Shown piece after piece: positions 19,273 to 36,814 of a DNA stretch of 64,000 bases. The DNA is from an uncultured Candidatus Bathyarchaeia archaeon. Lineage in GTDB: Archaea > Thermoproteota > Bathyarchaeia > TCS64. The stretch is taken from positions 1,736 to 65,735 of the forward strand of contig CAZPMB010000002.1 of assembly GCA_964587735.1 (NCBI GenBank). The letters are read 5' to 3'. Made by a program: the position numbers and the translations under genes. The stretch's first letter is position 1. The number at the start of each line of letters is the position of its first letter. The notes below the pieces were generated by a model. That model was not told the origin of the DNA. It saw only the letters and a list, made by a program, of their open reading frames with translations, and did not search any database.

Positions 19273-19680
19273 ATGCACGAGTGGGCCTTGGCCGAGGGCG
19301 TAGTCTCCACCGCCACCAAGATCGCAGAGGAACAGGGGCTGGAAGAGGTCACGGAGGTGACAGTCAGGATAGGCGAGCTCCAGCAGATAGAGCACGAAGT
19401 CTTCAGTTTCGCTCTCGAGCAGCTCAGGACGCCTGTGATGAAGAACGCAAAGTTCGTCCTCGAGACGATCCCCGGAAAGTTGAGATGCCGGGCATGCGGC
19501 AAGGAGTGGCTCTTCAGCCCGGAGGCGCTGGGCGATGAGGTCTCGGAGGCCATCCACTTCGTTCCGGAGGTAGCCCACGTCTACGTCAAGTGCCCGAGCT
19601 GTGGGAGCCCGGACTTTGAGATCATCGAGGGGCGGGGAGTCATCCTGGCCTCTATTAAGGGGGTGAAGGGAAGTGATTGA
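19273..19680 (+). CDS. hypA: Hydrogenase nickel incorporation protein HypA
   Basis: MHEWALAEGVV N-terminus (MHE Ni site) and CRACG...CPSCG zinc ribbon. Confidence 0.85.
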   Translation: MHEWALAEGVVSTATKIAEEQGLEEVTEVTVRIGELQQIEHEVFSFALEQLRTPVMKNAKFVLETIPGKLRCRACGKEWLFSPEALGDEVSEAIHFVPEVAHVYVKCPSCGSPDFEIIEGRGVILASIKGVKGSD

Positions 19681-20410
19681 CCCCAGGCTTGAGATCATAG
19701 GCAAAAGGCTCGGGAAGATAGGGAAGATCGTGGCCGTCTCGAGCGGGAAGGGAGGCGTCGGCAAGAGCATGGTCGCTGCCATCCTGGCGCTCACCCTGAG
19801 GAGAGAGGGTTTCAGCGTTGGGCTGCTGGACTTAGACTTCACCAGCCCCTCGAGCCACGTCATCCTGGGTGTGGAGGGGCTCTACCCCGAGGAGGATAAA
19901 GGTATAGTGCCTCCTCTGGCCCATGGCATAATGTACATGTCCATAACCTACTACTCACTCGACAAGCCGGCCCCGCTGAGGGGTTCAGATGTCACAGACG
20001 CCATAATTGAGCTCCTGGCCATCACCAGATGGGGGGAGCTCGACTATCTGGTGATAGACATGCCGCCCGGCATAGGCGACGCCACCCTCGACCTGCTACG
20101 CCTCGTCAAGGGGATAAGCTTCCTCGTCGTGACTACTCCCTCGATGGTGGCCTTCGAGACCGTCAGAAAGCTCCTTGTCCTCTTACATGAGCTTGGTATT
20201 TCCATAATCGGCGTCGTCGAGAACATGGTGATGCAACCTTCGAGACAGATAAGGAGTCAGGTCGAACGAATCGGACAACGCTACCTTGGGGAAATACCCT
20301 TCGACAAGGAGCTGGAGGGGGCCCTCGGTGACGTCGAAAGGCTCATGGGCACCGGTTTCGCCTCATCGCTGAAGAAGATAGCCGGGGATGTTCAACAAAG
20401 GCTCAATTGA
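19673..20410 (+). CDS. Mrp/MinD-family P-loop ATPase, candidate ATPase-type HypB (Ni insertion partner of HypA)
   Basis: GKGGVGKS Walker A, ParA/MinD/Mrp fold. Overlaps the hypA stop by 8 nt. No GTPase-type hypB in the window. Confidence 0.6.
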   Translation: MIDPRLEIIGKRLGKIGKIVAVSSGKGGVGKSMVAAILALTLRREGFSVGLLDLDFTSPSSHVILGVEGLYPEEDKGIVPPLAHGIMYMSITYYSLDKPAPLRGSDVTDAIIELLAITRWGELDYLVIDMPPGIGDATLDLLRLVKGISFLVVTTPSMVAFETVRKLLVLLHELGISIIGVVENMVMQPSRQIRSQVERIGQRYLGEIPFDKELEGALGDVERLMGTGFASSLKKIAGDVQQRLN

Positions 20411-20629
20411 GAAGGATCTTAGAGGGACAAGGATATTGACTGCTCAGAGTCTCAGAGCTCCATTTACGATATGTAATGAGGATCTACTTCTCTGCGCGTG
20501 ATAACTGCACAAAATTCCGCTATTAAACTGGCGTATATGCTAGCATTAAAAGCCCTTTACTGGACTCCTTGCCCTCCGTCACCCGTAGGATTTATCCATC
20601 GCCATATATCATGGAAGGGGAGGATACCC

Positions 20630-21118
20630 ATGGTACCCATAGATGCCGTTGTCGATATCAGCAAGTCGGATGCCCGCTTCCTCCGCAGGCTCGCCGCGGA
20701 GATGGGCGCTTCCGACCTGAGCAAGTGCTTCCAGTGCGGCGTCTGCGTCGCCAGCTGTCCCGTCAGGGAGATCGAGGCGGAGTTCAACCCCAGGCGGATC
20801 ATGAAGCTGGCGAAGCTCGGCCTGAAGGACATCGTCCTCGGGAGCGATTTCATCTGGCTGTGCTCCATGTGCTTCATGTGCCACGAGCGCTGCCCCCAGG
20901 ACGTAAGGCCGCCCGAGGTTATGACGGTCCTGAGGAACATCGCCGCGAAGGAGGGCATTGCGCCGCCTAACCTGATGAAGCTCGTCGAAGTGCTCTCCGA
21001 GAACGGGAGGGTCTACCCACTCGACGACTTTACGATGGACGAAAGGCAGGACAGGGATCTACCCGAGGTAGAGTCCAAACCAGGGTTCGTGATGAAGATA
21101 GCAGGGGCGGGGAAATGA
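20630..21118 (+). CDS. hdrC: Heterodisulfide reductase subunit C
   Basis: Two CxxCxxC...CP ferredoxin-like motifs (CFQCGVCVASCP, CSMCFMCHERCP). ATG at 20630 preceded by GGAAGGGGAGG. The track ORF starts upstream at 20498. Confidence 0.8.
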   Translation: MVPIDAVVDISKSDARFLRRLAAEMGASDLSKCFQCGVCVASCPVREIEAEFNPRRIMKLAKLGLKDIVLGSDFIWLCSMCFMCHERCPQDVRPPEVMTVLRNIAAKEGIAPPNLMKLVEVLSENGRVYPLDDFTMDERQDRDLPEVESKPGFVMKIAGAGK

Positions 21119-21990
21119 GGTACGCCCTGTTCCTCGGCTGCACCATACCGGCCAGGCAGATGAACTACGAGCAGTCGGCCCGGACTGTAGCGAAGGCGCT
21201 GGGAATCGATCTGGTCGACGTCGACTTCGGTTGCTGCGGCTTTCCGATAGAGCCGGTAGACGAGGTAAAGGCCCTTTCCATGGCCGCTGTGAACCTCAAG
21301 AAGGGGAAGGAGAAAGGGCTCGATATCGTCACCCTGTGCTCTGCCTGCGGCGAGATGCTTACGAAGGCTGAGGAGGTCCTGGAGAAGGACGAAGCCATGG
21401 GAAAGAGCGTCAACGGCGTCCTCGGCAAACAGGTGGGCACAGAGTACAAAGGGGAGAAGCCCCGCGTCGTCCACTTCGCCAGGATGCTCTACGAGGACAT
21501 CGGTAGAGAGAAGATAAGAGCTCTAGTCAAGCGCCCGCTCCAGGGGCTGAAGATAGCGACCCACCCCGGCTGCCACTACGTGAGGCCCTCCAGCCTCAGC
21601 GGCGGATTCGACGACCCCGAGTTCCCCCACAGCCTCGACGAGCTCGTCGAGGCCACGGGCGCAGAGGCTGTAGACTATATGGGCAAGGAGGACTGCTGCG
21701 GGGGGAGCATCTTGGCCGTGAGGGAGGATGTCTCGAAGGCGATGACACGGAAGAAGCTAGAGGCGCTGAGCGGGAAGGTGGACGCGATGGTGTTAATCTG
21801 CCCGTTCTGTGGGATCATGTACGACAGGTACCAGAAGCTGATGGCCGACGAGCTGGAGAAGGAGTACAATGTCCCAGTGCTCTACTACCCTCAACTCCTG
21901 GGTCTGGCCCTTGGAATTGACCCTGAAAAGCTAGGTTTCGACGTCAACTCCGTGAGGGTTGACGGGGTTTTAGAGAAGGTGGGTGTCTGA
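21115..21990 (+). CDS. hdrB: Heterodisulfide reductase subunit B (two CCG domains)
   Basis: FGCCGFP and EDCCGGS CCG-domain motifs. MRYALFLGCT start. Confidence 0.85.
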   Translation: MRYALFLGCTIPARQMNYEQSARTVAKALGIDLVDVDFGCCGFPIEPVDEVKALSMAAVNLKKGKEKGLDIVTLCSACGEMLTKAEEVLEKDEAMGKSVNGVLGKQVGTEYKGEKPRVVHFARMLYEDIGREKIRALVKRPLQGLKIATHPGCHYVRPSSLSGGFDDPEFPHSLDELVEATGAEAVDYMGKEDCCGGSILAVREDVSKAMTRKKLEALSGKVDAMVLICPFCGIMYDRYQKLMADELEKEYNVPVLYYPQLLGLALGIDPEKLGFDVNSVRVDGVLEKVGV

Positions 21991-24313
21991 GTTGGCGTTG
22001 GGTGTTTTCATCTGCAAGTGCGGAGGCAACATCTCCGGGACCGTGAACTGCGAGGAGGTCAGGGACGCCGTCAAGGACATGGATGGGGTGACGACCGCCC
22101 AGGTAACCGAGTTCCTCTGCTCGAAGCCTGGGCTCCAGCTGATCAGGAACGCTATCCAGAGGAGGAAGCTGGACAGGGTCGTCGTGGCGTGCTGCAGCCC
22201 CCATATGCACGAGAAGATGTTCCAGAACGTTGTCGAGGAGGAGGGGGTGAACAGGTACCGCTTGGTCCACGTCAACCTGAGGGAGCACTGCAGCTGGGTC
22301 CACGAGAAGGGCGCCACCGAGAAGGCCGTCAACCTCGTGAAGGGAGGGGTGAGGAGGGCGCTCACCCTCGAGCCCCTCGAGGGAAAGGAGGTTGAGCTCT
22401 GCAGGGATGTCCTAGTCATCGGGGGCGGGGTCGCGGGCATAACAGCGGCTCTGCAGCTCTCCGAGGGCGGCTTCAAGGTCAACATGGTGGAGAGGAGGCC
22501 TAGCATCGGGGGCCGGATGGCCCAGCTGAGCAAGACCTTCCCCACCCTCGACTGCTCCCCGTGCATACTGAGCCCCAGGATGGCGGAGGTAGAGAACGAC
22601 AAGAACATCACCCTCTACACGGGGGCAGAGGTAATTGGCGTGACAGGAGGCCCCGGCAACTACAAAGTCGCTGTCAAGCAGAAGGCGAGGGGGGTCGACC
22701 TCGACAAGTGCCTCAAGTGCGGGCGCTGCTCATCGGTCTGCCCGACCGAGGTCCCGAACGAGTTCGAGGAGGGGCTGTACAGCCGGAAGGCGATCTACCT
22801 CCCCTTCCCGCAGGCCGTTCCATCCTCCTACGTCATAGACCTCGAGAACTGCAAGAGGTGCGGCAGCTGTGTTGAGGCGTGTCCTGCCAAGGCTGTCAAC
22901 CTCGACGACGAGGACAAGACGATCGAGCTCGACGTGGGGGCGATCGTCGTCGCCACCGGATTCGACCTCATCGACGATGCGAGGCTCAAGAGCTATCACC
23001 CGGAGCACTCCGGCGTCGTGAACGCCCTCCAGGTGGAGAGACTGATTGAGAACGAGCTCACCGAGGGCAAGGTGCTGATGACGAAGGGCGGCGAAAGGGT
23101 GAAGGGCATAGCCTACGTGCTTTGCGCCGGGAGCCGTGACCCCCACAGGGGGGTCTCCTACTGCAGCGCTGTCTGCTGCCCCTACTCGATAAAGCAGGCG
23201 ATCCTGCTGAAGAAGTTCCTCCCCTACCTGAAGATCTACATCTACTACACGGACATGAGGATGATCGGAAGGGGCTTCGAGGACTTCTACAGGGACGCCA
23301 GGGAGAAGGGCATAATCTTCATCCACGGAAGGCCAGGCGAGGTGACCCCTCTACCCTATGGAAATCTCGAGATCCTGGTGGAGGACATCGACACAGGCAT
23401 AATGTTCAGGAATGAGGTGGAGCTGGTCGTTCTCTCCTCGGCGATGATCCCCTCGGCAGGGACGGCGGAGCTAGCCTCCAAGCTCAGCATCGCCCTCGGG
23501 GAGGACCTCTTCGTCGCCAGCAAGCACGTGAAGCTTGACCCGATCTCGACGCTCAGGGCAGGGATCTTCGCCGCAGGCGTCGCGACCAACTGTAAGGACA
23601 TCCACGACTCCGTCATTGAGGCGAGGGCCGCGGCATCCCACGTCGCAAACTTCCTAGGAGAGGGGAGAATGAAGCTCGACCCCTTCAAACCCACGGTCGT
23701 GGGAGAGTGTGACGGGTGTGGCCTCTGCGTCGAGGTCTGCCCGAGGGGAGCTGTTAGCGTGAAGGGGTTCTCCCCAGTGATCGATCTAGTATCCTGTAAC
23801 GGCTGTGGTGCCTGCGTCTCGGCATGCTCGACGGGGGTGCTCAGGCTCCCGAACTACACAAGGGAAGCCATACTCGAAGAGGTCAGAGGACTCGTCGAAG
23901 GAGCCAAAGACGAGGTCGTCGTAATCGGCTTTTACGACGACAACATCAGTTATACAGCCGCTGACAACGCCGGGACAGCGCGGATCCACTCCCCCACGAA
24001 CATGAGGATCATTAGGACCCCCTCCACGGCTATACTCGACAGGGACACGATACTCAAATCCCTCGGTTATGGGGCGGACGGGATAATGATCTGCGAGGTC
24101 GAGGGGAGCCACGAGGAAAAGCTCGCAGAGAAGCTCGTTGACGAAGTGAGAGGGGAACTGGAGAGGCTCGGCTTGGAGCCCGAGAGAGTGTACCTGAAGC
24201 CGATGGTGCTCCCCATCTTCAAGGTGCTGCCCCAGTTCATCGACGATTTCACCAACACTATCGGGAAACTGGGAAAAATACCGGAGGACAAGCGGGAGAA
24301 AATTCTTGGGTAG
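21983..24313 (+). CDS. hdrA: Heterodisulfide reductase subunit A with a C-terminal Cys-less MvhD-like domain
   Basis: N-terminal Cys domain (FICKCGGN), FAD GGGVAGITAA, inserted and C-terminal 2x[4Fe-4S] ferredoxins. Residues from about 640 align to MvhD with the Cys ligands replaced. Confidence 0.85.
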   Translation: MSELALGVFICKCGGNISGTVNCEEVRDAVKDMDGVTTAQVTEFLCSKPGLQLIRNAIQRRKLDRVVVACCSPHMHEKMFQNVVEEEGVNRYRLVHVNLREHCSWVHEKGATEKAVNLVKGGVRRALTLEPLEGKEVELCRDVLVIGGGVAGITAALQLSEGGFKVNMVERRPSIGGRMAQLSKTFPTLDCSPCILSPRMAEVENDKNITLYTGAEVIGVTGGPGNYKVAVKQKARGVDLDKCLKCGRCSSVCPTEVPNEFEEGLYSRKAIYLPFPQAVPSSYVIDLENCKRCGSCVEACPAKAVNLDDEDKTIELDVGAIVVATGFDLIDDARLKSYHPEHSGVVNALQVERLIENELTEGKVLMTKGGERVKGIAYVLCAGSRDPHRGVSYCSAVCCPYSIKQAILLKKFLPYLKIYIYYTDMRMIGRGFEDFYRDAREKGIIFIHGRPGEVTPLPYGNLEILVEDIDTGIMFRNEVELVVLSSAMIPSAGTAELASKLSIALGEDLFVASKHVKLDPISTLRAGIFAAGVATNCKDIHDSVIEARAAASHVANFLGEGRMKLDPFKPTVVGECDGCGLCVEVCPRGAVSVKGFSPVIDLVSCNGCGACVSACSTGVLRLPNYTREAILEEVRGLVEGAKDEVVVIGFYDDNISYTAADNAGTARIHSPTNMRIIRTPSTAILDRDTILKSLGYGADGIMICEVEGSHEEKLAEKLVDEVRGELERLGLEPERVYLKPMVLPIFKVLPQFIDDFTNTIGKLGKIPEDKREKILG

Positions 24314-24384
24314 GAGGTGAGCCCCATCGCCTCTATGGCCCCTTACGCATAACATCCGCGCCGTCTAAAGGTGGTCAATATCGT

Positions 24385-24412
24385 CATGGTTTATTAACTA
24401 ATTAAAATTCTT
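24385..24412. terminator. Candidate bidirectional T-rich terminator region between convergent hdrA and protease genes
   Basis: ttaactaattaaaattcttttcaaaat: near-palindrome plus T-runs in a 118-bp convergent spacer. Confidence 0.3.
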
Positions 24413-24431
24413 TTCAAAATCTGAAGGGACG

Positions 24432-24876
24432 CTACTCCAGTTCTCGTTTGATCATCTTTATGAGCTTCGGCATAGCCACCTGAACCTTCTCAGTTAGATC
24501 GCTGCTGAACGACTCCACATCCTGGGCCTCAACGGCCAAGATCACGATCTTCCCCGGCATCTCATAGGGGTAAAGCTGCTTCCCCAGCTTCAATATGCCG
24601 GGGAGATTCAAGCCATGGGACTGGCCGAAATCGGACTCTACCAGCTCCTCGGGTTCCAGCCTGTGGATAGTCCCGGGTTCGGCGCCCGTCGTTGTTGCAT
24701 CGATGATGATGACCCTGTTTCGGTTCCTGATGTGGTCCAGTAGGTCGATATTCGCAGTGGAAAGGTCGACGGCATCGACCTCAGGCATCTCCTCCTTCAG
24801 GATCTTTACGACATGTATCCCAACGCCGTCGTCAGCCCGGAGGAGGTTGCCTATGCCAATGACCGCGTTCCTCAAC
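24432..24876 (-). CDS. Hydrogenase maturation endopeptidase (HycI/FrhD/HybD family)
   Basis: GIGNLLRADDGVG motif. Likely TTG start at 24876 overlapping the mvhA TGA stop (TTGA). The track ORF extends further upstream in frame. Confidence 0.75.
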
Positions 24877-26335
24877 TCAGGTTCCTTTCGAGCCTCTTGT
24901 ACAGACTGCCCCTGCTGTCGTAGATCTCCACAGCCAAGGGCATCTGGCCGGGAAGGCTGTGTGTTGAGCAGGCGAAGCATGGGTCGTATGCCCTGAAGGC
25001 CATCTCCACCTTGTTGAGGAGGCCCTCGCTCACCTTGCCTCCCTTGATGAGACCACTCGCGGCATCTCTAATAGACACGCAGATGGGCGCGTAGTTATTC
25101 GTGGTTGCTACTATCAGATTCGCCTTCTCCACGAGGCCCTCGCTGTCCAACTTGTAGTGGTGGTAAAGGGTACCCCTCGCTGCCTCGACTACGCCAACCC
25201 CTTCCCCGGGCTTCCCCACTGGGTTCCTCAGGCCCGTCCCCGTTATCTCCGGGTCGGTCGCTAGCTCTAGTGTCCGCTCCGTAGCGTAAAGCAACTCCAC
25301 AAGCCTCGCCCAGTGGAAGGCGAGGGTCGAGTTTACAGGCTTCCCGCCGAGGGTCTTGTACATTCGCTTGTACTCCTCGTCGGCGAGGGGCGTCGCCATG
25401 CCTTCGGCGGCGTTTAGCCTGCCGAGGGGACCGACGCGGTAGATTCCGCTGTCCTTGCCATCCTTCAGCCCCTTCCAGCCGACGTCCTTCAGGTAGGTGA
25501 ACTTCGAGTAAGTCCAGGGCTCCACGTGCTCGGAGATGTAATCGAGGTAGTCCTTCGCCTGGAACCTGTCGTGCTCCCTCCCCTTCTGGTCGGTCACGCG
25601 GATGTCCCCGTCGTAGAAGTTGACCCTGTTGTTCTCGTCGACGAGGCCCATGTTGTAGGTCTTTAGCTGATAGGGGTCGCTGAGGATCAGGTCAACGTAG
25701 CCCTTGTTCCCGAGGACAACGTCGTTGAACACTCTGAGGGTGAACCTTGCGAACTCGATGGAGGAGCGGGCCATCTCCTCTATCTCCTTCCTCTCCTCCT
25801 CGTTCAGCCCCTTCGAGACGCCTCCGGGGAGACCACTCGTCGGGTGGGTCGCCTTCCCGCCGAGGATCTCGATGACCCTCTGTCCATATGCCCTGTGCTT
25901 AATCACCTCCTTTCCGACATCGAGGCCTACCTTCTTCAGGACGCCGAATATGTTCCTCTCTGTTGGCGGGGCATCCGGCCCAACGACGAAGTCTGGGGCC
26001 CCCAGAAAGTAGAAGTGGAGAGTGTGATCGTAGACGTAATAGCCCGAGTACATCAACTCCCTGAGCTTCTTTGCCGTCGGCGTGGGCGCGACATCGTATG
26101 CTGCATCTAGGGCTTTTGTGGAGGCCATGTGGTGTGCCACCGGGCATACGCCGCAGATCCGTGGCGTTATGATGGGCATGTCCTCGGCCCTCCTACCCTC
26201 GCAGAAGCGTTCGAAGCCTCTCAGCTCGGGGACTTGTAGGTACGCGTTCTCGACGTTCCCCTCGTCATTGAGGAATATGGCGATCTTGCCGTGGCCCTCG
26301 AGCCTAGTTATCGGGTCTATGGTGACGGTCTTCAT
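24872..26335 (-). CDS. mvhA: [NiFe] hydrogenase large subunit, MvhA-like (F420-non-reducing type)
   Basis: N-terminal RICGVCPVAH (RxCGxC) and C-terminal DPCFACSTH (DPCxxCxxH) Ni-Fe ligand motifs. 487 aa. Confidence 0.85.
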   Translation of the reverse strand: MKTVTIDPITRLEGHGKIAIFLNDEGNVENAYLQVPELRGFERFCEGRRAEDMPIITPRICGVCPVAHHMASTKALDAAYDVAPTPTAKKLRELMYSGYYVYDHTLHFYFLGAPDFVVGPDAPPTERNIFGVLKKVGLDVGKEVIKHRAYGQRVIEILGGKATHPTSGLPGGVSKGLNEEERKEIEEMARSSIEFARFTLRVFNDVVLGNKGYVDLILSDPYQLKTYNMGLVDENNRVNFYDGDIRVTDQKGREHDRFQAKDYLDYISEHVEPWTYSKFTYLKDVGWKGLKDGKDSGIYRVGPLGRLNAAEGMATPLADEEYKRMYKTLGGKPVNSTLAFHWARLVELLYATERTLELATDPEITGTGLRNPVGKPGEGVGVVEAARGTLYHHYKLDSEGLVEKANLIVATTNNYAPICVSIRDAASGLIKGGKVSEGLLNKVEMAFRAYDPCFACSTHSLPGQMPLAVEIYDSRGSLYKRLERNLS

Positions 26336-27300
26336 CTTTTGATCCTCCTGTTCATGATGGCAACCGGGAGCCCGTATTTATAAAAGGTCCCGACAGGGTC
26401 CTTCAGCTGCGACATGAGCGCCTCGGGGTCGAAGCCCTCCTCCTTCTCCTCGGCGAGGCCCAGGACGGTCGAGAGGGCCGAGATCATCGCAGTCCCCTGC
26501 TCGATGGCCTCGGGGCAAGGGCCCCCACAGCCTGTACAGGGCATGTTGGCGTTCAGGCATCGGGACTCGCAGCCCCCCCTAGTGGCTGGACCCATGCAGA
26601 CGATGCCCTGCTCGAGGAGGCACTTCTCGGGCTCGGGTTCGAAGTCGATGATCCTCCTGATCCCGGCAACTTTCTTCTCCTCCCTGGTCCTAGGGCACTC
26701 GTCGCAGACCGACTTCTCAGGGGCTAGAACCGCACCCTTCGGCGGGAGGTTCCCACTCGCTATGGCCTGGACAGCCTCGACTATGAGCCCCGGCGCCGGA
26801 GGGCACCCCGGCAGATAGTAGTCCACGTCCACGACTTGGTCCAGCGCCATGACAGTGTCGTAGAACTCAGGGAGCGTGAGGGTTCCCTCCTTGGCTTCGA
26901 ACTTGGTCAGTGGGACAAGGTTCTTCTCATTCTCCGTAGAAGGCGACCGCAGGTAGGCCCTCTCGAATACCTCCTCCCGGTCGGCGACGTTGGCGAGCCC
27001 TGGAATGCCGCCCATGTGGGCGCATGAGCCGAAGGCGACGAGGGCCTTCGCCTTCCTCCTGAGCAGCTTGGCGAGGTGATCCTGCTCCTCTGTGCGCACC
27101 GCTCCGTTGAAGAAGCAGACATCCATGAAGCCATCCGGCATCGCCTCCACATCCTTGTATTTGACGTCCATCGCCACAGGCCAGAAGACTACTTCTGCTA
27201 TCTCCAAAACGTCGAGTATCTTCTCGTCGATGTCAAGGACGGCGATCTCACAGCCCCCGCAACTAGCAGCCCAGTAGAACCCGAACTTCAGCTTACCCAA
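26332..27300 (-). CDS. mvhG: [NiFe] hydrogenase small subunit, MvhG-like
   Basis: AASCGGCE proximal-cluster motif and multiple downstream Cys clusters. 322 aa. 4-nt overlap with mvhA. Confidence 0.8.
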   Translation of the reverse strand: MGKLKFGFYWAASCGGCEIAVLDIDEKILDVLEIAEVVFWPVAMDVKYKDVEAMPDGFMDVCFFNGAVRTEEQDHLAKLLRRKAKALVAFGSCAHMGGIPGLANVADREEVFERAYLRSPSTENEKNLVPLTKFEAKEGTLTLPEFYDTVMALDQVVDVDYYLPGCPPAPGLIVEAVQAIASGNLPPKGAVLAPEKSVCDECPRTREEKKVAGIRRIIDFEPEPEKCLLEQGIVCMGPATRGGCESRCLNANMPCTGCGGPCPEAIEQGTAMISALSTVLGLAEEKEEGFDPEALMSQLKDPVGTFYKYGLPVAIMNRRIKR

Positions 27301-27306
27301 ATAATA

Positions 27307-28164
27307 TCACTCCGTGAACTTCTGCAGCATTGAGGCATCGATCTTGTTGCTGTTGAACCCCAGATCGTCGTAGTCGATCCCGAGCGCCAGACCAAGCAGC
27401 TGCGGGTAGTGAACGATAGGCACGTTTGGGGGATTCTCCTGAATCAACTGGCACCTCTCGTATGTCAGGTAGCAGAACGGGCAGGCCGTGATCAGTATAT
27501 CCGCATACTTCTTTACAGTCTCCACCTTCTCAAGGCCGACGCTCCAGGTGACGGCCTCCCGGACTCCCATGATCGGCCCGGCGCAGCACTCCAGCTTGTT
27601 CGGGTAGGCGACGCTCTCCGCGCCAGTGACTTCTACGAGCTCGTCCAATGTTTTTGGTGCCTCTGGGTCGTCCTTGACCATGATGTCCGAGGGCTTCAGC
27701 ATGTGGCACCCATAGTGGGTTCCGACCCTCAGACCCTTCAGCGGCTGTGAAACCTGCGACCCGATCTTTTCTAGGCCTATGTCGTCCTTCAGCATCCTGG
27801 CGAAGTGCTTTACCTCCACCGTCCCCTTGAACTCCCTGCCGACGTCGGCGAGGACCTCATTGACCTCGGCCCTGAGCTTCGGGTCTTCCTTGAGCTCCTT
27901 GTTCGCCCTCATCAGGACCTCCGTGCAGCCGTTGCAGACCGTGACTATGTCTAGCTCCATCTCCTCCGCGATGCAGATGTTCCTTGCGGCGACGGCCAGC
28001 CCCGTATTGTGGTCCAAGGTCTCGAGGTATGTGGTGCCGCAGCAGCTCGAGCCTGGCATGTCCACCAGCTCGATACCCAGCCGCTCAGCGACCCTCCTCG
28101 TTGCCTTCTCGTATCCCCAGAGGCGGGCAAGGGTCGTGCAACCGGCGAAGAACGCGTACTTCAT
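27307..28164 (-). CDS. hdrB: Heterodisulfide reductase subunit B
   Basis: SSCCGTT and LECCAGP CCG motifs. MKYAFFAGCT start. Confidence 0.85.
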   Translation of the reverse strand: MKYAFFAGCTTLARLWGYEKATRRVAERLGIELVDMPGSSCCGTTYLETLDHNTGLAVAARNICIAEEMELDIVTVCNGCTEVLMRANKELKEDPKLRAEVNEVLADVGREFKGTVEVKHFARMLKDDIGLEKIGSQVSQPLKGLRVGTHYGCHMLKPSDIMVKDDPEAPKTLDELVEVTGAESVAYPNKLECCAGPIMGVREAVTWSVGLEKVETVKKYADILITACPFCYLTYERCQLIQENPPNVPIVHYPQLLGLALGIDYDDLGFNSNKIDASMLQKFTE

Positions 28165-28165
28165 C

Positions 28166-28678
28166 TCAGCCCTCCTCCACGAGGCCGAGGAAACCCGTCT
28201 TCCTCATTATCTTCTCGACCTCTTTGGCGTCTGGCTCGGGTGCGGGGGGCAGGTCCTCGTCCTCCCTCATCTCGTTCTGGAAGTCGTCTATCTCGTAGAT
28301 GTACCCAATCTCCGCCAGGGTGTTCATCAGCGCCCTGTGGGTCGGGTGGATTATCCCCCCCTTCACCGCCAGCTTCCGGAGCGCCGAGACTATCTCCGAG
28401 ATCCTAACCTGCTCCGGGCAGCGCTCGTAGCAGGTGTAGCACCCTGCGCAAAGCCACACGGTGTCGCCGACGAGCAGCCTTTCCTTCTGGCCGTAGATCG
28501 CTAGCCGCGCGATCTGCCTGGGCCTGAACGCCTCGACCCTCATGGCGATGGGGCAGTCGGCGGTACAGGTCCCACATTGGTAACAGAGCATCAGCTTCTC
28601 GGCGCCTGGTATCTGCATTAGGCGCTCCCTGAAGCCCTTGTCTGCCTGGGACATCCGGATCTCCTTACGCTCGGTCAA
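28166..28678 (-). CDS. hdrC: Heterodisulfide reductase subunit C
   Basis: CYQCGTCTADCP and CAGCYTCYERCP motifs. Confidence 0.8.
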   Translation of the reverse strand: MTERKEIRMSQADKGFRERLMQIPGAEKLMLCYQCGTCTADCPIAMRVEAFRPRQIARLAIYGQKERLLVGDTVWLCAGCYTCYERCPEQVRISEIVSALRKLAVKGGIIHPTHRALMNTLAEIGYIYEIDDFQNEMREDEDLPPAPEPDAKEVEKIMRKTGFLGLVEEG

Positions 28679-29121
28679 CTTACTCGCCCTCCGGCAGTGA
28701 TGACCTCCAACGGCCTTAGGGGGCTAGGTCCCAGCCTCTTCATGTCTGCGACCATCTCCTTCATCACTCGGGCAAATTTGTCCCCCTCCGCGGCAGAGAT
28801 CCATTCCAGCCTTAGACGTTCCGGCTCAAGCCCGAGCTGAGACATCAGCCTCTTCAGCATTGCGATCCGCCTCTTGGCCTTCAGATTACCGGTAATGTAG
28901 TGGCAGTCGTTGGGAGGGTGGCAGCCGGCGACTAACACTCCGTCTGCCCCGTCCCTGAACGCCTCCAAGATGAAGGCGGGGTGGACCCTCCCGCTACACA
29001 TCACCCTTATTACCCTTAGGTTTGGAGGGTACTGGAACCTGCTGACCCCGGCGAGGTCGGCCCCGGCGTAGCTGCACCAGTTGCAGAGGAACCCAACTAT
29101 CCTCGGCTCGAACTCGGTCAT
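28675..29121 (-). CDS. mvhD: MvhD (methyl-viologen-reducing hydrogenase delta subunit, [2Fe-2S])
   Basis: MTEFEPRIVGFLCNWCSYAGADLAG ... MCSGRV ... GCHPPNDCHY canonical MvhD cysteines. ATG at 29121 overlaps the stop of the upstream hdrA fusion (ATGA). Confidence 0.8.
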   Translation of the reverse strand: MTEFEPRIVGFLCNWCSYAGADLAGVSRFQYPPNLRVIRVMCSGRVHPAFILEAFRDGADGVLVAGCHPPNDCHYITGNLKAKRRIAMLKRLMSQLGLEPERLRLEWISAAEGDKFARVMKEMVADMKRLGPSPLRPLEVITAGGRVS

Positions 29122-32120
29122 GCCTTCACCTCCATGAGGGCGGCCCTCACCTGAGAGAGTATCTCGTCGTCCGTGAAGTGGCCGACCGTTATGGCCCCAG
29201 ACGGGCAAGTTGAGGCGCAGACACCGCAGCCCTTGCACAGCTCCTCTACGACGTGGGAGTGAACCTTACCCTCCTCCTCGACCATCTCGATGGCGTTGAA
29301 CTCGCAGACGCCTTCGCACATCCTGCAGCCTGAGCAGAAGTCCTCGTTAACGCTCGCAATGGCACCCTCCATCTCCAGCGTCTCTTTCGAAAGTATCGTC
29401 ATCGCTCTAGCGGCTGCACCGCAAGCCTGGCTTATGCTCTCGTCAATCGACTTCGGCCCGTGGGCCATCCCACAGAGGAAGACGCCGTCGGTGGCGAAGT
29501 CGAGGGGCCTCAGCTTCATGTGGGCCTCCAAGAAGAACCCATCCTTGCTGAGGGGTACCTTCAGAAGCCCTGCGATCCACCGGTTGTCGGGAGAGGGCAG
29601 GACCCCGGCGCTTAATACCACGGCCTCCGGCTCCATGATCACATTCTCTTTAAGTACCGGGTCCAAGACCTCGACTCTGAGACCGCTCTCTCTTGTGACC
29701 CGAGGCTTGTGCTCGTCATCGTACCGGATGAAGATGACGCCCTTCTTCGCGGCGTCCCTGTAGAAGTCCTCCTTGAATCCATAGGTACGCATGTCCTTGT
29801 AGAGGACGTAGATATCCGCGGCCGGGTTTACCTCCTTTACCTTGAGGGCGTTCTTCACGGCGTCGGTACAGCAGATCCTGGAGCAGTAAGGGCGCTCATC
29901 GCACCTGGAACCGACACACTGGATCATGACCACAGAGCTCGGTTTGAACCCATTCGCTAGTTTCTCCTCTAGCTCAAGCTGGGTCATCACATCCTCATCG
30001 GAGCCATAGAGGTACTCCTTGGGCTCGTACTCGACACCACCGGTGGCGATGACGACGACCCCGTGCTTGACCACCTCCTCGCCCTTCTTGCTGAGCAGCG
30101 TGGTCTCGAAGTTACCAATGTAGCCGCCCACGTCCTCCACCTTCGCGCCTAGGTGGACGTGGATCTTCTTGTTGCCCCTCACCCTGTTCACGAGCTCCCC
30201 CAGCTTCTTCTGAGGGTCAATTCCGCCAAGCGCGAATCTTAACCTCCTCAGGTTGCCACCTAGCTCGCTCTCCTTCTCCACGAGGTGGGTCTTAATGCCC
30301 TGCTCGGCGAGTTCGAGGGCCGCGGTCATGCCCGAGAGGCCCCCCCCAATTACTAGGGCTGCTGGGGTAACCTTGACCTGGGGCTTCTTCAGGGGCTGGA
30401 GGAGCCTGGCCTTGGCGACGGCCATCCTGACCAAGTCCTTCGCCTTCTGGGTGGCCTCCTCTGGCTCCCGCATATGGACCCAGCTGCACTGGTCCCTGAT
30501 GTTCGCCATCTCGAAAAGGTAGGGGTTCAGCCCCGCGTCTTGGAGGGTCGCCCTGAAGAGGGGCTCGTGGGTCCTCGGCGTGCATGAGGCCACTATTACC
30601 CGATTAAGCTTGTGCTCCAGTATCTTCTCCTTGATCTTCTCCTGAGTGTCCTGGGAGCAGGTGTAAAGGTTCCTCTCGGAGTACGCGACGCCGGGCAGGG
30701 TGCCTGCGTACTCTATGACCTCCGGAACGTTAACGACGCCTCCGATGTTGATGCCGCAGTGGCAGACGAAGACTCCAACTCTGGGCTCCTCGCCAGAGAT
30801 GTCCCTCTCGACGGGGTACTCCTCGCTCACAACGAGGGTGCCTCTCACAGAGGCGATCGCCCTCTCCGCCTTAGCTGCGGCCCCACTCGCCTGCGCAACG
30901 CTGTCGGGGATGTCCTTCGGAGAGGCGAATGCCCCGCACACGTAAACGCCTGGACAGGTCGTCTCCAACGGTGTGAAGAGCCCGGTCTTAGCAAATCCGT
31001 GCTCGTTGAGCTCGAAGCCAAGGACCTCGGAAAGCTTCCCAGCGTCTGCCGGTGGGTTCATTCCAACAGAGAGGACCACCATATTGAACCTCTCCCGCTT
31101 CACCTCGCCGTTCTCAACGTAAGTGACGAATAGGTCCTTGGTATCTGGGTCCTGGTCGGTGTGGGAGGCCCTGCTCCTGATGAACCTGACTCCGTGTTCC
31201 TCTTCTGCCCTGGCGTAGTAGTCGTCGAACTCCTTGCCAAAGGCGCGGACGTCCATGAAGAAGATTGAGGGCTTCAGCCCAGGGTTGTGCTCTTCGGCGA
31301 TGACAGCCTCCTTAATGGTGTACATGCAGCAGACGCCGCTGCAGTATGGGTTACCGACCCTCTCGTCCCTGCTGCCAACGCACTGTATAAAAGCAACCTT
31401 CTCAGGTAGCTCGCCATCGGATGGTCTTAGTACAACGCCCCGGTAGGGGCCAGTAGCGCTCAGGATGCGCTCGAACTCGATACTCGTCACGACGTTGGGG
31501 TACCGCCCATAGCCGTACTCTGTGACGATCCTCGGGTCGAACTCCTCAAAGCCGGGGGCGAGGATTATGGACCCGACCTCTAGCTCGACCTCTGAGTCCT
31601 CTTCATCGTAGCGGATAGCATTCGCCTTGCAGACCTCCTTACAGATGCCGCAGCCGAGGCACTTCTCCTTGTCGATAGTGAAGATGAGCGGCACCGCCTG
31701 GGAGTATCGGATGAAGACTCCCCTACGCTTGCTGAGGCCCTCGTTGTACTCGTCTATTGCCGAAGCGGGGCATTTCTGTGCGCAGATTGCGCACCCCGTG
31801 CATTTCTCGGGGTCTACCCTCATCGCCTTCTTTTTGAGAGTCGCCCTGAAGTCGCCCTCCTCCCCCTCCACACTCTTCAGCTCCGAGTAGGGCACGATCT
31901 GGATGTTCGGGTGCCTCCCGGCTCCTACGAGCTTCGGGGCGAGGATGCACATGGCGCAATCATTCGTTGGGAAGGTCTTGTCCAGCTGGGTCATTACCCC
32001 GCCGATGCTCGGCTCCTTCTCCACCAGATATACCTTGAATCCCGAGTCAGCCAGGTCCAGGCTCGCCTGTATGCCGGCTATGCCCCCACCGACGACCATC
32101 ACCGCACCGACTTTCCTCAT
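29118..32120 (-). CDS. hdrA: Tandem HdrA fusion: FAD-domain-only HdrA' fused in frame to a full-length HdrA (1000 aa)
   Basis: Two Rossmann FAD motifs (VVGGGIAGIQAS near the N-terminus; IGGGLSGMTAA near residue 580). The central VFVCHCGINIGG...CSWVH HdrA N-domain lies between them. The two halves are paralogous to the adjacent split pair at 34596..35918 and 32893..34593. Confidence 0.8.
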   Translation of the reverse strand: MRKVGAVMVVGGGIAGIQASLDLADSGFKVYLVEKEPSIGGVMTQLDKTFPTNDCAMCILAPKLVGAGRHPNIQIVPYSELKSVEGEEGDFRATLKKKAMRVDPEKCTGCAICAQKCPASAIDEYNEGLSKRRGVFIRYSQAVPLIFTIDKEKCLGCGICKEVCKANAIRYDEEDSEVELEVGSIILAPGFEEFDPRIVTEYGYGRYPNVVTSIEFERILSATGPYRGVVLRPSDGELPEKVAFIQCVGSRDERVGNPYCSGVCCMYTIKEAVIAEEHNPGLKPSIFFMDVRAFGKEFDDYYARAEEEHGVRFIRSRASHTDQDPDTKDLFVTYVENGEVKRERFNMVVLSVGMNPPADAGKLSEVLGFELNEHGFAKTGLFTPLETTCPGVYVCGAFASPKDIPDSVAQASGAAAKAERAIASVRGTLVVSEEYPVERDISGEEPRVGVFVCHCGINIGGVVNVPEVIEYAGTLPGVAYSERNLYTCSQDTQEKIKEKILEHKLNRVIVASCTPRTHEPLFRATLQDAGLNPYLFEMANIRDQCSWVHMREPEEATQKAKDLVRMAVAKARLLQPLKKPQVKVTPAALVIGGGLSGMTAALELAEQGIKTHLVEKESELGGNLRRLRFALGGIDPQKKLGELVNRVRGNKKIHVHLGAKVEDVGGYIGNFETTLLSKKGEEVVKHGVVVIATGGVEYEPKEYLYGSDEDVMTQLELEEKLANGFKPSSVVMIQCVGSRCDERPYCSRICCTDAVKNALKVKEVNPAADIYVLYKDMRTYGFKEDFYRDAAKKGVIFIRYDDEHKPRVTRESGLRVEVLDPVLKENVIMEPEAVVLSAGVLPSPDNRWIAGLLKVPLSKDGFFLEAHMKLRPLDFATDGVFLCGMAHGPKSIDESISQACGAAARAMTILSKETLEMEGAIASVNEDFCSGCRMCEGVCEFNAIEMVEEEGKVHSHVVEELCKGCGVCASTCPSGAITVGHFTDDEILSQVRAALMEVKA

Positions 32121-32896
32121 TCCGACACCTCCATCGCCGCGTAGATGGGAGAACTCCCTCGTATCTCTTGGACATCAACCCAGCCCAGCTGACGCATCGC
32201 CACTATATGTTCTAGGACCTTTTTGGAGTCAATGCCCAGCTTCTTCGAGAGCTCCTTGACCGAGGAGGGCTCTTGGAGAAGGGAGAGGCGGATCTTCTGG
32301 TGAACATACTCGCTTTCTAAGGCCTCGTCCATCACCTCGTCGAACTCGCCCTTCGCGACAGGCTCCCCATAGATGTTCCCTTCCTTGACGAGCTTCTCCT
32401 CCTTCCCCACAAGGGCCCTGAGCCTGTAGTTCTCAGCAGCAGCCTTCGCCGCCCTGAGGTTGAGAAGCAGCCCGGGGTCCGGTGAGTCGCCGGAGACAGA
32501 TGACGGGCCCAGCCCTCTGACCTTTTCTATGAAAGCTCCTACTTGGTCCGCGAACTTTTGACCCTCTGAGGCGAATATATACTCCAGAGCAAGCCTCTCG
32601 GGCTCGAAGCCTGCCTTCTCCAGTAGCCTCCTCGTAAAGTGGTACTTAGTTTCGACCTGCTCGTGGTTCCTGATGTAGTTGCAGCCGCCGAGTGTGCAAG
32701 TTGTGATCATGACGCCGTCGATCCCCTCCGAGAAGACCCTTAGCAGCATAGAGGGGTCAATCCTCCTACAACACATGACCCGGAGGAAGCGGATATTGGG
32801 GGGGTACTGGATCCTGCTGATCCCAGCCAGGTCGGCTACTGCATATCCGCAACAGTTGCACAGGAAACCTATCAGGCGCGGCTCGTACTCGGTCAT
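32117..32896 (-). CDS. MvhD domain fused to a C-terminal winged-helix-like domain
   Basis: N-terminal 135 aa is canonical MvhD (GFLCNCCGYAVADLAG, MCCRR, TCTLGGCNY). The C-terminal 120 aa carries SSVKELSKKLGIDSKKVLEHIVAMRQLGWV, which is HTH/wH-like. Confidence 0.7.
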   Translation of the reverse strand: MTEYEPRLIGFLCNCCGYAVADLAGISRIQYPPNIRFLRVMCCRRIDPSMLLRVFSEGIDGVMITTCTLGGCNYIRNHEQVETKYHFTRRLLEKAGFEPERLALEYIFASEGQKFADQVGAFIEKVRGLGPSSVSGDSPDPGLLLNLRAAKAAAENYRLRALVGKEEKLVKEGNIYGEPVAKGEFDEVMDEALESEYVHQKIRLSLLQEPSSVKELSKKLGIDSKKVLEHIVAMRQLGWVDVQEIRGSSPIYAAMEVSE

Positions 32897-34593: not shown

Positions 34594-34595
34594 AA

Positions 34596-35918: not shown

Positions 35919-35920
35919 CG

Positions 35921-36802: not shown

Positions 36803-36814
36803 TACCAGACCCTC

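What the first reader, a model, noticed from the sequence alone, without database searches (positions are those of the whole stretch)
23913..24313. HdrA carries a C-terminal MvhD-like domain that has lost its [2Fe-2S] cysteine ligands
The last 130 aa of the plus-strand HdrA align colinearly with MvhD from the neighbouring operon (VVVIGFYDDNISYTAADNAG versus IVGFLCNWCSYAGADLAG; LGLEPERVYL versus LGLEPERLRL). Every cluster-binding Cys is replaced by Asp, Thr or Glu. This hdrCBA set has no separate mvhD and no adjacent hydrogenase. The degenerate domain may be a structural relic of an HdrA::MvhD fusion repurposed as a docking module for a different electron donor.
Basis: seen in the sequence. Interest (0 to 1): 0.65.

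Follow-up and report, generated by a model that had tools for sequence, protein, structure and literature searches.

The report
HdrA with cluster-less MvhD domain
A heterodisulfide-reductase flavoprotein (HdrA) of a Bathyarchaeia archaeon ends in a well-folded copy of the hydrogenase adaptor MvhD that can no longer bind its iron-sulfur cluster; the same cluster-less domain was found in every long HdrA checked from many archaea, cultured methanogens included, so these enzymes probably cannot take electrons through the usual MvhD route.

Summary
The core observation is real. Residues 647-764 of the plus-strand HdrA (window 23921-24274) are a full-length MvhD/FlpD homologue (Pfam E 1.8e-21; family profile against solved MvhD chains E 2e-20; predicted fold TM 0.86 to 5ODC_D). 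All five conserved MvhD cysteines are lost, and the CHxGDC loop is shortened. One non-conserved Cys (C704) remains.

The domain is not a decaying relic. All 116 full-length closest homologues are cluster-less (named ones: Bathyarchaeota, Asgard lineages, Thermoplasmata, Geothermarchaeales). So are 117 Methanobacteriaceae-type long HdrAs and those of Methanocella and Methanoperedenaceae. The domain is as conserved as the neighbouring ferredoxin domain.

The HdrA core is fully canonical. The conserved gene unit is hdrC-hdrB-hdrA, with no conserved donor gene.

A [NiFe]-hydrogenase/Hdr operon with two cysteine-bearing mvhD genes starts 119 bp downstream on the other strand.

Best reading (inferred): a redox-inert structural MvhD module on a stand-alone HdrABC that uses diffusible carriers. 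I found no paper stating the cluster-less state.

Verdict: a new variant of a known kind (HdrA::MvhD fusions), of moderate interest.

The parts
20498..21118 (+). hdrC of the hdrCBA operon (two [4Fe-4S] ferredoxin-like subunit)
   Evidence: Pfam Fer4_8/Fer4_17 dicluster hits. It overlaps the hdrB start by 4 nt.
21115..21990 (+). hdrB (two CCG domains, the disulfide-reducing subunit)
   Evidence: Pfam CCG PF02754, two stretches, E 8e-26. It overlaps the hdrA start by 8 nt.
21983..24313 (+). hdrA fused to a cluster-less MvhD-like domain (776 aa from the GTG start; the database twin P0001 is 773 aa and 100% identical)
   Evidence: AlphaFold2 model mean pLDDT 88.8.
21983..23890 (+). Canonical type-I HdrA core (aa 1-636): N-terminal cluster domain, FAD/thioredoxin-reductase domain, inserted and C-terminal 2x[4Fe-4S] ferredoxin domains
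   Evidence: End-to-end phmmer alignment to 8RVU and 5ODC HdrA, E 1e-168. Foldseek TM 0.92 to 8rvu_A. Residues equivalent to 5ODC C11/C13/C46/C71, C194/C197, E356 and K409 are present and invariant in 91 family members.
22553..22564 (+). C191-S-P-C194, the conserved HdrA cysteine pair (5ODC C194/C197) that lies between the MvhD cluster and FAD in solved complexes
   Evidence: Both Cys are invariant in the family. Their proposed role is described in PMC13580544.
23921..24274 (+). MvhD/FlpD-fold domain without [2Fe-2S] ligands (aa 647-764)
   Evidence: Pfam PF02662 E 1.8e-21. Family profile against solved MvhD chains E 2e-20. Domain model pLDDT 88.3, TM 0.85-0.87 to 5odc_D, 7bkb_F and 8rvu_F.
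23936..23947 (+). D652-D-N-I655, replacing the C13-N-W-C16 motif of MvhD
   Evidence: Among 116 homologues the C13 column is D 70, G 23, E 13, and the C16 column is I 86, V 12, T 9.
24023..24025 (+). S681, replacing ligand C42 (motif P-S-T-A instead of M-C-S-G)
   Evidence: The column is S in 109 and T in 7 of 116 homologues.
24092..24109 (+). C704-E-V-E-G-S, the shortened loop replacing G-G-C67-H-x-G-D-C72-H. It holds the lone, non-conserved Cys.
   Evidence: The C72 column is a gap in 116 of 116 homologues. Position 704 is Cys in 41 of 91.
24200..24232 (+). P-M-V-L-P-I-F-K-V-L-P, a family-specific motif replacing the canonical E-W-I-S-A-S-E-G-x-K-F of MvhD
   Evidence: Alignment. P744 is invariant; P740, L743 and P750 are at least 90% conserved.
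24432..27300 (-). Context, a different transcription unit: hycI-type protease, [NiFe]-hydrogenase large (24872-26335) and small (26332-27300) subunit genes, convergent with hdrA
   Evidence: Pfam HycI, NiFeSe_Hases and Oxidored_q6.
27307..32896 (-). Context: hdrB, hdrC, canonical mvhD (28675-29238, all five Cys), a 1000-aa HdrA with two thioredoxin-reductase domains (29118-32120), and a second mvhD fused to a winged-helix-like tail (32117-32896)

Best explanation
The last ~130 residues of this HdrA are a true MvhD-fold domain fused to a complete, canonical bifurcation-type HdrA. The cluster pocket has been rebuilt. All four [2Fe-2S] ligands, the fifth conserved Cys and the His/Asp loop are gone. 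They are replaced by conserved Asp/Ser/Pro and hydrophobic motifs.

Shown:
- The homology and the fold.
- The absence of ligands.
- Purifying selection on the domain.
- Very wide distribution: among named proteins, Bathyarchaeota, several Asgard lineages, Thermoplasmata, Geothermarchaeales, Methanocella, Methanobacteriaceae and Methanoperedenaceae.
- Intact HdrA cofactor and flavin-site residues.
- A recurring hdrC-hdrB-hdrA unit with no shared donor gene.

Inferred:
- The domain is a redox-inert structural module. It keeps the MvhD position on HdrA's mobile arm (N-terminal plus C-terminal ferredoxin domains).
- Electrons therefore cannot enter the flavin through the MvhD route used by the Mvh, Fdh and Elp donor modules.
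- HdrA*BC thus works as a stand-alone complex. It exchanges electrons with diffusible carriers: ferredoxin at the inserted ferredoxin domain, and possibly a hydride carrier at or near FAD.
- It then passes electrons to a disulfide at HdrB. This resembles what is proposed for Methanosarcina HdrA1B1C1 (ferredoxin-dependent) and HdrA2B2C2 (ferredoxin- and F420H2-dependent).
- The neighbouring hydrogenase operon has its own HdrA, HdrBC and two cysteine-bearing MvhDs, and need not serve this enzyme.
For: Homology and fold:
- Pfam FlpD, full-length match, E 1.8e-21.
- Family profile against solved MvhD/ElpC chains, E 2e-20.
- Domain model TM 0.85-0.87 to solved MvhD chains, next unrelated fold 0.40.

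Loss of ligands:
-.
- 116 of 116 full-length homologues are cluster-less.
- 117 of 117 Methanobacteriaceae-type long HdrAs are cluster-less.
- 49 of 52 proteins with the domain in the Methanoperedenaceae query's hit list, Methanocella among them, are cluster-less. The three exceptions are proteins of more than 1100 aa.

Selection:
- Domain 52% mean pairwise identity, C-terminal ferredoxin domain 50%, core 61-66%. No member has more than 20 gap columns in the domain.

Canonical core:
-. Invariant C191/C194, E352 and K404.

Gene context:
- No shared donor gene in ten neighbourhoods. hdrA stands alone in two Thermoplasmata-type loci.

Literature:
- MvhD with HdrA's N- and C-terminal domains forms the mobile arm, and its cluster feeds the flavin (PMC13580544).
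- HdrA2 alone uses F420H2 and ferredoxin (PMC5296606; PMC12054007).
- Physiology of M. acetivorans HdrA1B1C1 fits direct ferredoxin-dependent heterodisulfide reduction (PMC4561719).
Against: - No structure of a complex was modelled, so where the domain docks is unproven.
- The conserved acidic and hydroxyl residues in the former cluster pocket (D652, D653, S681, E705, E707) could bind something else.
- In this window and in one Lokiarchaeia locus, the gene sits next to HdrA/MvhD/HdrBC sets with a double-thioredoxin-reductase HdrA. A functional link to a neighbouring donor is therefore possible.
- The disulfide substrate in Bathyarchaeia is unknown.
- I could not obtain the Methanosarcina HdrA1 sequence to confirm that the genetically studied enzyme carries the same domain.
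Confidence: 0.6

Rival explanations
1. Docking adaptor. The cluster-less domain keeps MvhD's protein-binding surface and recruits an electron-donor module to HdrA. The donor could be the neighbouring MvhAG hydrogenase or an unlinked Fdh-, Frh- or Elp-type protein.
For: - The MvhD fold and several MvhD-wide conserved residues (Y657, D661, G664, R678, G697-A-D-G700, R735) are kept.
- A [NiFe]-hydrogenase operon lies 119 bp downstream in this window.
- One Bathyarchaeia locus has the operon directly after a group-4-like hydrogenase cluster.
- One Lokiarchaeia locus has neighbouring HdrA/MvhD sets.
Against: - No partner gene recurs across the ten neighbourhoods, and hdrA stands alone in two of them.
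- The neighbouring hydrogenase operon carries its own HdrA, HdrBC and two intact MvhDs.
- Without the [2Fe-2S] cluster, Cys16 and the His/Asp loop, the last relay to the flavin is missing. Even with the cluster, the gap to FAD is about 22 A (PMC13580544).
- The canonical E-W-I-S-A-S-E-G motif is also replaced.
Confidence: 0.2
2. New ligand site. The rebuilt pocket (Asp652, Asp653, Ser681, Thr682, Glu705, Glu707) binds a different cofactor, metal or substrate. This could be a hydride carrier such as F420H2 or NAD(P)H, which would make the domain the entry point for mid-potential electrons.
For: - D653 and S681 are at least 90% conserved in the 91-sequence family alignment.
- The F420H2 site of fused HdrA2 is still unknown, and the fused MvhD has been suggested as a candidate (PMC12054007).
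- An unidentified ligand sits between MvhD Asp71 and the HdrA Cys pair in solved complexes (PMC13580544).
Against: - No Pfam, NCBIfam or fold match to any nucleotide- or flavin-binding family beyond MvhD.
- The loop carrying His68 and Asp71 is deleted.
- The position equivalent to C13 varies (D, G or E).
- Much of the replacement motif is hydrophobic (L-P-I-F), which fits a filled-in pocket better than a polar binding site.
Confidence: 0.12
3. Decaying remnant or artefact. The domain is a recently inactivated, functionless leftover, or the product of a frameshift or assembly error.
For: - The loss of all functional residues is what a pseudo-domain looks like.
- One close homologue (P0085, 638 aa) ends just before the domain.
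Against: - The reading frame is intact to the stop codon.
- An identical protein is in NCBI (P0001).
- The cluster-less state is conserved in several hundred proteins across phyla, with family-specific invariant residues.
- The fold is predicted with confidence.
- The tail of P0085 diverges abruptly into unrelated sequence, as after a frameshift.
Confidence: 0.03

Closest known systems
HdrA2 of Methanosarcina/Methanothrix (type Ia HdrA, HdrA::MvhD fusion; NCBIfam NF040770; F420H2- and ferredoxin-dependent HdrA2B2C2)
   Same: - Same architecture: a full HdrA followed by an MvhD-fold domain, about 775-790 aa.
- Best NCBIfam match for the whole window protein (777 bits).
- It works without a bound hydrogenase (PMC5296606).
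   Different: - HdrA2 keeps all five MvhD cysteines (Methanothrix HdrA2 P0172 is 'CCCCC'). Its sequence motifs predict a [2Fe-2S] cluster (PMC5296606).
- The window protein has none of these cysteines.
- The window protein scores below the family cut-off (777 against 1100 bits).
- Canonical MvhD scores 188-191 bits on the HdrA2 model's tail; the window domain scores only 54.5.
Long HdrA of Methanobacteriaceae (NCBIfam NF041891, named 'ferredoxin:CoB-CoM heterodisulfide reductase subunit HdrA') and of Methanocella
   Same: - HdrA plus a cluster-less MvhD-like domain with the same shortened loop and a P-S motif at the C42 position.
- Same hdrC-hdrB-hdrA gene order with no donor gene.
- Best NCBIfam match for the window's C-terminal domain alone (63.4 bits).
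   Different: - Only 37-40% identity in the core and 31-35% in the domain.
- The window protein scores 633 bits against a cut-off of 1300.
- The hosts are methanogens with CoM-S-S-CoB. Bathyarchaeia are not known to make these coenzymes (own knowledge).
- The family name is by analogy; I found no biochemical study of these proteins.
MvhD / VhuD / ElpC, the free [2Fe-2S] adaptor subunits in solved Hdr complexes (5ODC, 7BKB, 8RVU, 9SW2)
   Same: - Same fold (TM 0.85-0.87).
- Colinear sequence homology.
- Shared conserved Y, A-D, A-G, R, G-A-D-G and E-R positions.
   Different: - Those are free subunits with four Cys ligands plus Cys16 and His68/Asp71. They relay electrons from a hydrogenase, Fdh or Elp module to HdrA (PMC13580544).
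- Here the domain is fused, has no cluster, and is not encoded with a donor module.
QmoB of sulfate reducers (HdrA-like flavoprotein with a C-terminal MvhD-like domain)
   Same: An HdrA-type protein with a fused MvhD-like domain whose role is described as enigmatic (PMC3333476).
   Different: - QmoB works with QmoA and QmoC, not with HdrBC.
- Its cysteine status was not examined here.

Membership tests
MvhD/FlpD (Pfam PF02662) | Significant full-length match to the family profile | tested here: met
   E 1.8e-21, 76.8 bits (cut-off 22.3), profile positions 1-123 of 123. Family profile against solved MvhD chains E 2e-20.
MvhD/FlpD (Pfam PF02662) | MvhD alpha/beta fold | tested here: met
   AlphaFold2 domain model pLDDT 88.3. 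Foldseek TM 0.86 and rmsd 2.4 A to 5odc_D; TM 0.87 to 7bkb_F.
MvhD/FlpD (Pfam PF02662) | Four cysteine ligands of the [2Fe-2S] cluster (5ODC_D C13, C42, C67, C72) | tested here: not met
   D652, S681 and a shortened loop take their place. Only the non-conserved C704 lies near the C67 position.
MvhD/FlpD (Pfam PF02662) | Extra conserved Cys16 and His68/Asp71 facing the HdrA Cys pair | tested here: not met
   I655 replaces Cys16, and the loop with His68/Asp71 is deleted. The roles of these residues are described in PMC13580544.
MvhD/FlpD (Pfam PF02662) | Encoded with, and bound to, an electron-donor module (MvhAG, Fdh or Elp) | tested here: not met
   The hdrCBA operon has no donor gene. The hydrogenase is on the opposite strand in another operon. 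No donor gene recurs in nine other loci. Physical binding cannot be tested here.
HdrA, canonical bifurcating type I core | N-terminal 4-Cys cluster domain, FAD domain, inserted and C-terminal 2x[4Fe-4S] ferredoxin domains | tested here: met
   Alignment over residues 1-637 to 5ODC_A and 8RVU HdrA, E 1e-168. TM 0.92. Four Fer4 stretches. All cluster Cys are invariant in the family.
HdrA, canonical bifurcating type I core | Flavin-site Glu356/Lys409 and the Cys194/Cys197 pair (5ODC numbering) | tested here: met
   E352, K404 and C191/C194 are present and invariant in 91 sequences.
HdrA, canonical bifurcating type I core | Partner genes hdrB (two CCG domains) and hdrC | tested here: met
   hdrC 20498-21118 and hdrB 21115-21990 have overlapping stops and starts.
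HdrA2 (type Ia, NCBIfam NF040770) | Score above the curated cut-off | tested here: not met
   777 bits against a cut-off of 1100.
HdrA2 (type Ia, NCBIfam NF040770) | Fused MvhD domain with a [2Fe-2S] motif | tested here: not met
   The fusion is present but the motif is absent. HdrA2 of Methanothrix keeps it.
HdrA2 (type Ia, NCBIfam NF040770) | F420H2- and ferredoxin-dependent heterodisulfide reduction | not testable with these tools
   This needs an enzyme assay.
Methanobacteriaceae long HdrA (NCBIfam NF041891) | Score above the curated cut-off | tested here: not met
   633 bits against a cut-off of 1300.
Methanobacteriaceae long HdrA (NCBIfam NF041891) | Cluster-less MvhD-like tail and hdrC-hdrB-hdrA gene order | tested here: met
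   117 of 117 proteins are cluster-less with the same loop deletion. Gene order is shown. The window has the same order.

The most novel reading that the evidence does not exclude
The cluster-less MvhD fold is not just scaffolding. Its rebuilt, conserved pocket would be a new binding site through which a two-electron carrier or a partner protein feeds the bifurcating flavin. That would define a self-contained class of electron-bifurcating HdrABC that is the main Hdr of non-methanogenic archaea, Asgard lineages included. It would mean these organisms do not couple this Hdr to hydrogenase as metabolic reconstructions commonly assume.
Probability: 0.12. Interest if true: 0.7.

Novelty: new variant of a known kind. 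Interest (0 to 1): 0.45.

Why it matters
**Annotation and metabolic reconstruction**
- HdrA::MvhD fusions are known, but the role of the fused MvhD is openly called unknown (PMC6019823).
- Recent classifications describe the fused domain as the [2Fe-2S] electron-transfer protein (PMC12054007).
- Here a large and phylogenetically wide set of these fusions cannot bind the cluster.
- A Pfam FlpD hit on a long HdrA is therefore not evidence for an MvhD electron relay or a hydrogenase-coupled Hdr.
- NCBI even names close homologues of this protein 'hydrogenase iron-sulfur subunit', which is misleading.
- This touches reconstructions of Bathyarchaeia and Asgard metabolism.

**Mechanism**
- A naturally cluster-less MvhD on an otherwise canonical HdrA separates MvhD's structural role in the mobile arm from its electron-relay role.
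- Orthologues exist in cultured Methanocella, Methanobacterium and Methanobrevibacter, so the question is testable.

Tried and rejected
- **Genome scan.** It returned only one Bathyarchaeota locus. The taxonomic spread therefore rests on source names of protein hits.
- **Methanosarcina HdrA1.** I tried to fetch it to see whether the genetically studied enzyme has this domain. Searches seeded with the Methanobacterium and Methanoperedenaceae proteins did not list it. The only evidence is indirect: NCBIfam NF041778 (771 positions, same product name) has a tail that matches cluster-less domains (34.6-44 bits) better than canonical MvhD (18-20 bits). A review states that HdrA1 has no MvhD extension (PMC6019823). 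This stays unresolved.
- **Unavailable sources.** The AFDB fold library was not available. The Appel et al. 2021 review of HdrA modules is not held, so prior mention of the cluster-less state cannot be excluded.
- **Literature.** Seven full-text searches found no paper stating it.
- **Alternative ligands.** The domain plus tail has one Cys. His710 varies among family members in the alignment.
- **P0085.** This 638-aa homologue without the domain looks like a frameshift, not a natural loss.
- **Trees.** Neighbour-joining trees could not settle whether the cysteines were lost once or more than once. The domain tree groups all cluster-less forms. The core tree places the Bathyarchaeota/Asgard clade nearer to HdrA2 (no support values).
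- **Other scans.** No tRNA or Rfam feature is in the window. No Fdh- or FrhB-type partner gene is in the window.
Full report
**1. The observation**

The plus-strand ORF 21983-24313 encodes a 776-aa HdrA. Pfam places a full-length FlpD/MvhD domain at residues 647-764, E 1.8e-21, 76.8 bits, covering all 123 profile positions. For comparison, the free MvhD of the neighbouring operon scores 187 bits.

The isolated C-terminus hits solved MvhD chains (9SW2_D, 8RVU_F, 5ODC_D, 7BKB_F) at E 5e-9 to 9e-7. A profile built from 25 family members hits them at E 2e-20 to 7e-15, colinear over nearly the whole chain. The similarity is far beyond chance.

Canonical MvhDs, including both in this window, share five cysteines (5ODC_D C13, C16, C42, C67, C72). 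[quoted passage not shown] That leaves C13, C42, C67 and C72 as the ligands. The same paper reports His68 and Asp71 facing an unidentified ligand held by the HdrA cysteine pair.

In the window protein these positions are as follows:
- C13 is D652.
- C16 is I655.
- C42 is S681.
- The G-G-C-H-x-G-D-C-H loop is about five residues shorter.
- A single Cys (C704) lies at or beside the C67 position. HMMER aligns it to C67; MAFFT does not.

The stated replacements are slightly off, and one non-conserved Cys remains.

**2. Surroundings**

The gene is the last of a tightly packed hdrC (20498-21118), hdrB (21115-21990), hdrA operon. An Mrp/NUBPL-type P-loop gene (19673-20410) lies just upstream. hypD, hypF and a hypE-like gene lie further upstream.

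A large minus-strand operon starts 119 bp downstream and converges on hdrA. In order of increasing coordinate it holds these genes:
- hycI
- [NiFe]-hydrogenase large and small subunits
- hdrB and hdrC
- mvhD
- a 1000-aa HdrA with two thioredoxin-reductase domains
- a second mvhD with a winged-helix-like tail
- a 566-aa and a 440-aa HdrA-like gene
- hdrB and hdrC

A fourth hdrCB pair lies at 37598-38967. The statement 'no adjacent hydrogenase' is therefore wrong. The hydrogenase does belong to a separate unit with its own HdrA, HdrBC and intact MvhDs. The closest named database relatives are Bathyarchaeota.

**3. Not a relic**

- All 116 full-length proteins among the best 120 homologues have the same cluster-less pattern. 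The named ones are Bathyarchaeota, Promethearchaeota, Jord-, Frey-, Loki- and Njordarchaeal lineages, Thermoplasmata and Geothermarchaeales.
- Counting the window's own domain, 50 of 117 domains contain no Cys at all.
- Position 704 is Cys in only 41 of 91 sequences.
- The domain's mean pairwise identity is 52%. That equals the C-terminal ferredoxin domain (50%) and is not far below the core (61-66%). No aligned member lacks the domain.
- Family-specific motifs replace every loop that surrounds the cluster in MvhD. These are G-F-F-D-D-x-I-S-Y, R-x-P-S-T-A, and P-M-V-L-P-I-F-K-x-L-P in place of E-W-I-S-A-S-E-G. P744 is invariant, and D653, S681, P740, L743 and P750 are at least 90% conserved.

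A scan of 1.84 billion representative proteins gave a two-mode picture. Proteins either have all five Cys, or have none of the ligands. Only a few intermediates keep C16 and C67.

Source names tie the groups to organisms as follows:
- Cys-bearing fusions: Methanothrix HdrA2.
- Cluster-less fusions: Baldrarchaeia, Methanoperedenaceae and Methanobacterium.
- 117 of 117 long HdrAs related to the Methanobacterium protein are cluster-less with the same loop deletion. The named ones are Methanobacterium, Methanobrevibacter or Methanobacteriaceae.
- The long HdrAs of Methanocella conradii and M. arvoryzae are also cluster-less.

NCBI already has a curated model for the Methanobacteriaceae proteins, NF041891, named 'ferredoxin:CoB-CoM heterodisulfide reductase subunit HdrA'. 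The window protein scores below the cut-offs of that model and of the HdrA2 model.

**4. Structure**

- An AlphaFold2 model of the whole protein (91-sequence alignment) has mean pLDDT 88.8. The C-terminal domain blocks range from 79 to 96.
- Residues 1-640 superpose on solved HdrA chains, TM 0.92 to 8rvu_A and 0.91 to 7bkb_A.
- A domain-only model (pLDDT 88.3) matches solved MvhD chains with TM 0.85-0.87 and rmsd 1.8-2.6 A. The next unrelated fold reaches only 0.40. The MvhD fold is kept.

**5. The HdrA core is fully canonical**

It aligns end to end with the HdrA of structurally solved bifurcating complexes, E 1e-168. The following residues are present and invariant in the family:
- The N-terminal cluster cysteines.
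- The C194/C197 pair (window C191/C194).
- Glu356 and Lys409 (window E352 and K404). PMC12054007 describes these as stabilising the flavin for bifurcation.

**6. Gene context elsewhere**

The ten neighbourhoods are this window, four further Bathyarchaeia or Asgard loci, two Thermoplasmata-type loci, and three from methanogens or other lineages. Only hdrC-hdrB-hdrA recurs: both partner genes in seven, hdrB alone in one, hdrA alone in two. Individual loci show these neighbours:
- A Lokiarchaeia locus has a similar island, with a double-domain HdrA, MvhD and three hdrCB pairs.
- One Bathyarchaeia locus follows a group-4-like hydrogenase cluster.
- Another follows an HdrD-like membrane protein gene.
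- Two Asgard loci are flanked by 3-hydroxyacyl-CoA dehydrogenase genes.
- In Methanobrevibacter the operon sits among CoM- and homocysteine-related genes.

No donor module is shared.

**7. Most likely mechanism**

In solved complexes MvhD travels with HdrA's N-terminal and C-terminal ferredoxin domains as a mobile arm. It delivers electrons from the donor module towards the flavin of the partner protomer (PMC13580544).

A fused MvhD fold without a cluster can keep the first role but not the second. I therefore read the domain as a redox-inert structural module, and HdrA*BC as a stand-alone enzyme that uses diffusible carriers. Three literature points fit this reading:
- HdrA2B2C2 works without a bound donor module (PMC5296606).
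- Physiology indicates that M. acetivorans HdrA1B1C1 reduces the heterodisulfide directly with ferredoxin (PMC4561719).
- NCBI gives the Methanobacteriaceae relatives a ferredoxin-dependent reductase name.

This step is inference. The docking position, the donor and the disulfide substrate are not shown.

**8. Rivals**

- A docking-adaptor role is possible. It lacks a conserved partner and a relay cofactor.
- A new ligand site in the rebuilt pocket cannot be excluded, because D653 and S681 are conserved. There is no similarity to any cofactor-binding family, and much of the new motif is hydrophobic.
- A decaying remnant or an artefact is contradicted by the conservation.

**9. Novelty**

HdrA::MvhD fusions are a known kind (type Ia, HdrA2). 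The papers I could search treat the fused domain as the [2Fe-2S] protein, or call its function unknown. None mentions a cluster-less form. One key review was not available.

This particular protein is an ordinary member of a large family that is already sequenced and partly curated. What seems under-described is the family-wide loss of the cluster. Hence 'new variant of a known kind', of moderate interest.

**10. Limits**

- Taxonomic spread rests on source names.
- The number of independent losses is unresolved.
- No complex model or coordinates were available.
- The Methanosarcina HdrA1 sequence was not obtained.

Noticed in passing
window 32117-32896 (-): A second MvhD with all five cysteines carries a C-terminal extension of about 120 aa with weak winged-helix hits (PF0610-like_N E 1.8e-5, TrmB E 5.8e-4). 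The extension is homologous to the tails of other long MvhDs (blastp E 1e-12 to 1e-17 to P0250, P0167, P0253, P0210). Another long MvhD (P0244) carries a response-regulator receiver domain instead. It could be a redox-sensing regulator or an adaptor.
   Followed up: partly
window 20498-38967: A dense Hdr island holds four hdrCB pairs (20498-21990 +, 27307-28678 -, 35921-37327 -, and an orphan pair at 37598-38967 +). It also holds three HdrA-type sets. One is a 1000-aa HdrA with two thioredoxin-reductase domains (29118-32120). Adjacent 566-aa and 440-aa HdrA-like genes (32893-34593, 34596-35918) total a similar length and may be the same architecture split in two. A Lokiarchaeia locus (L003) has a comparable island next to its cluster-less hdrA.
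   Followed up: partly
window 24314-24431: A 118-bp AT-rich spacer separates the convergent stop codons of hdrA and hycI. It probably holds the terminators of both operons. It was not analysed.
   Followed up: no
L012 3407-13396 (Methanobrevibacter sp., CP166990.1) and L011 (Methanobacterium sp. MZ-A1, CP017767.1): In Methanobrevibacter the cluster-less hdrCBA operon lies directly after comA and a homocysteine-biosynthesis (HcyBio) gene, and near split TPP-enzyme genes that look like comDE. In Methanobacterium it lies near nifS/nifU-like genes and a class-I tRNA-synthetase gene. This hints at a link to thiol and sulfur metabolism. It recalls the sulfide/CoM rescue of the M. acetivorans delta-hdrABC mutant (title of PMC9963511).
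   Followed up: no
proteins P0151, P0154, P0174, P0247: A few MvhD-like domains are intermediates. They keep only C16 and C67 and replace C13, C42 and C72 with Asp, Asn, Ser or Thr (patterns DCSCS, DCDCD, NCSCT). P0174 is a 701-aa HdrA fusion. They could mark a stepwise loss or a different metal site.
   Followed up: no
L008 93-7999 (Bathyarchaeia contig, ERZ25039512): The cluster-less hdrCBA operon directly follows a group-4-like membrane [NiFe]-hydrogenase gene set. In that set the 30-kDa subunit is fused to a GltD-like Fer4_20/pyridine-nucleotide oxidoreductase domain.
   Followed up: no
database names of P0003, P0009, P0275, P0339 and others: NCBI names several of these long HdrA proteins 'hydrogenase iron-sulfur subunit', evidently from the FlpD domain hit, although the domain has no iron-sulfur ligands. 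This is a naming pitfall for metabolic reconstructions.
   Followed up: yes
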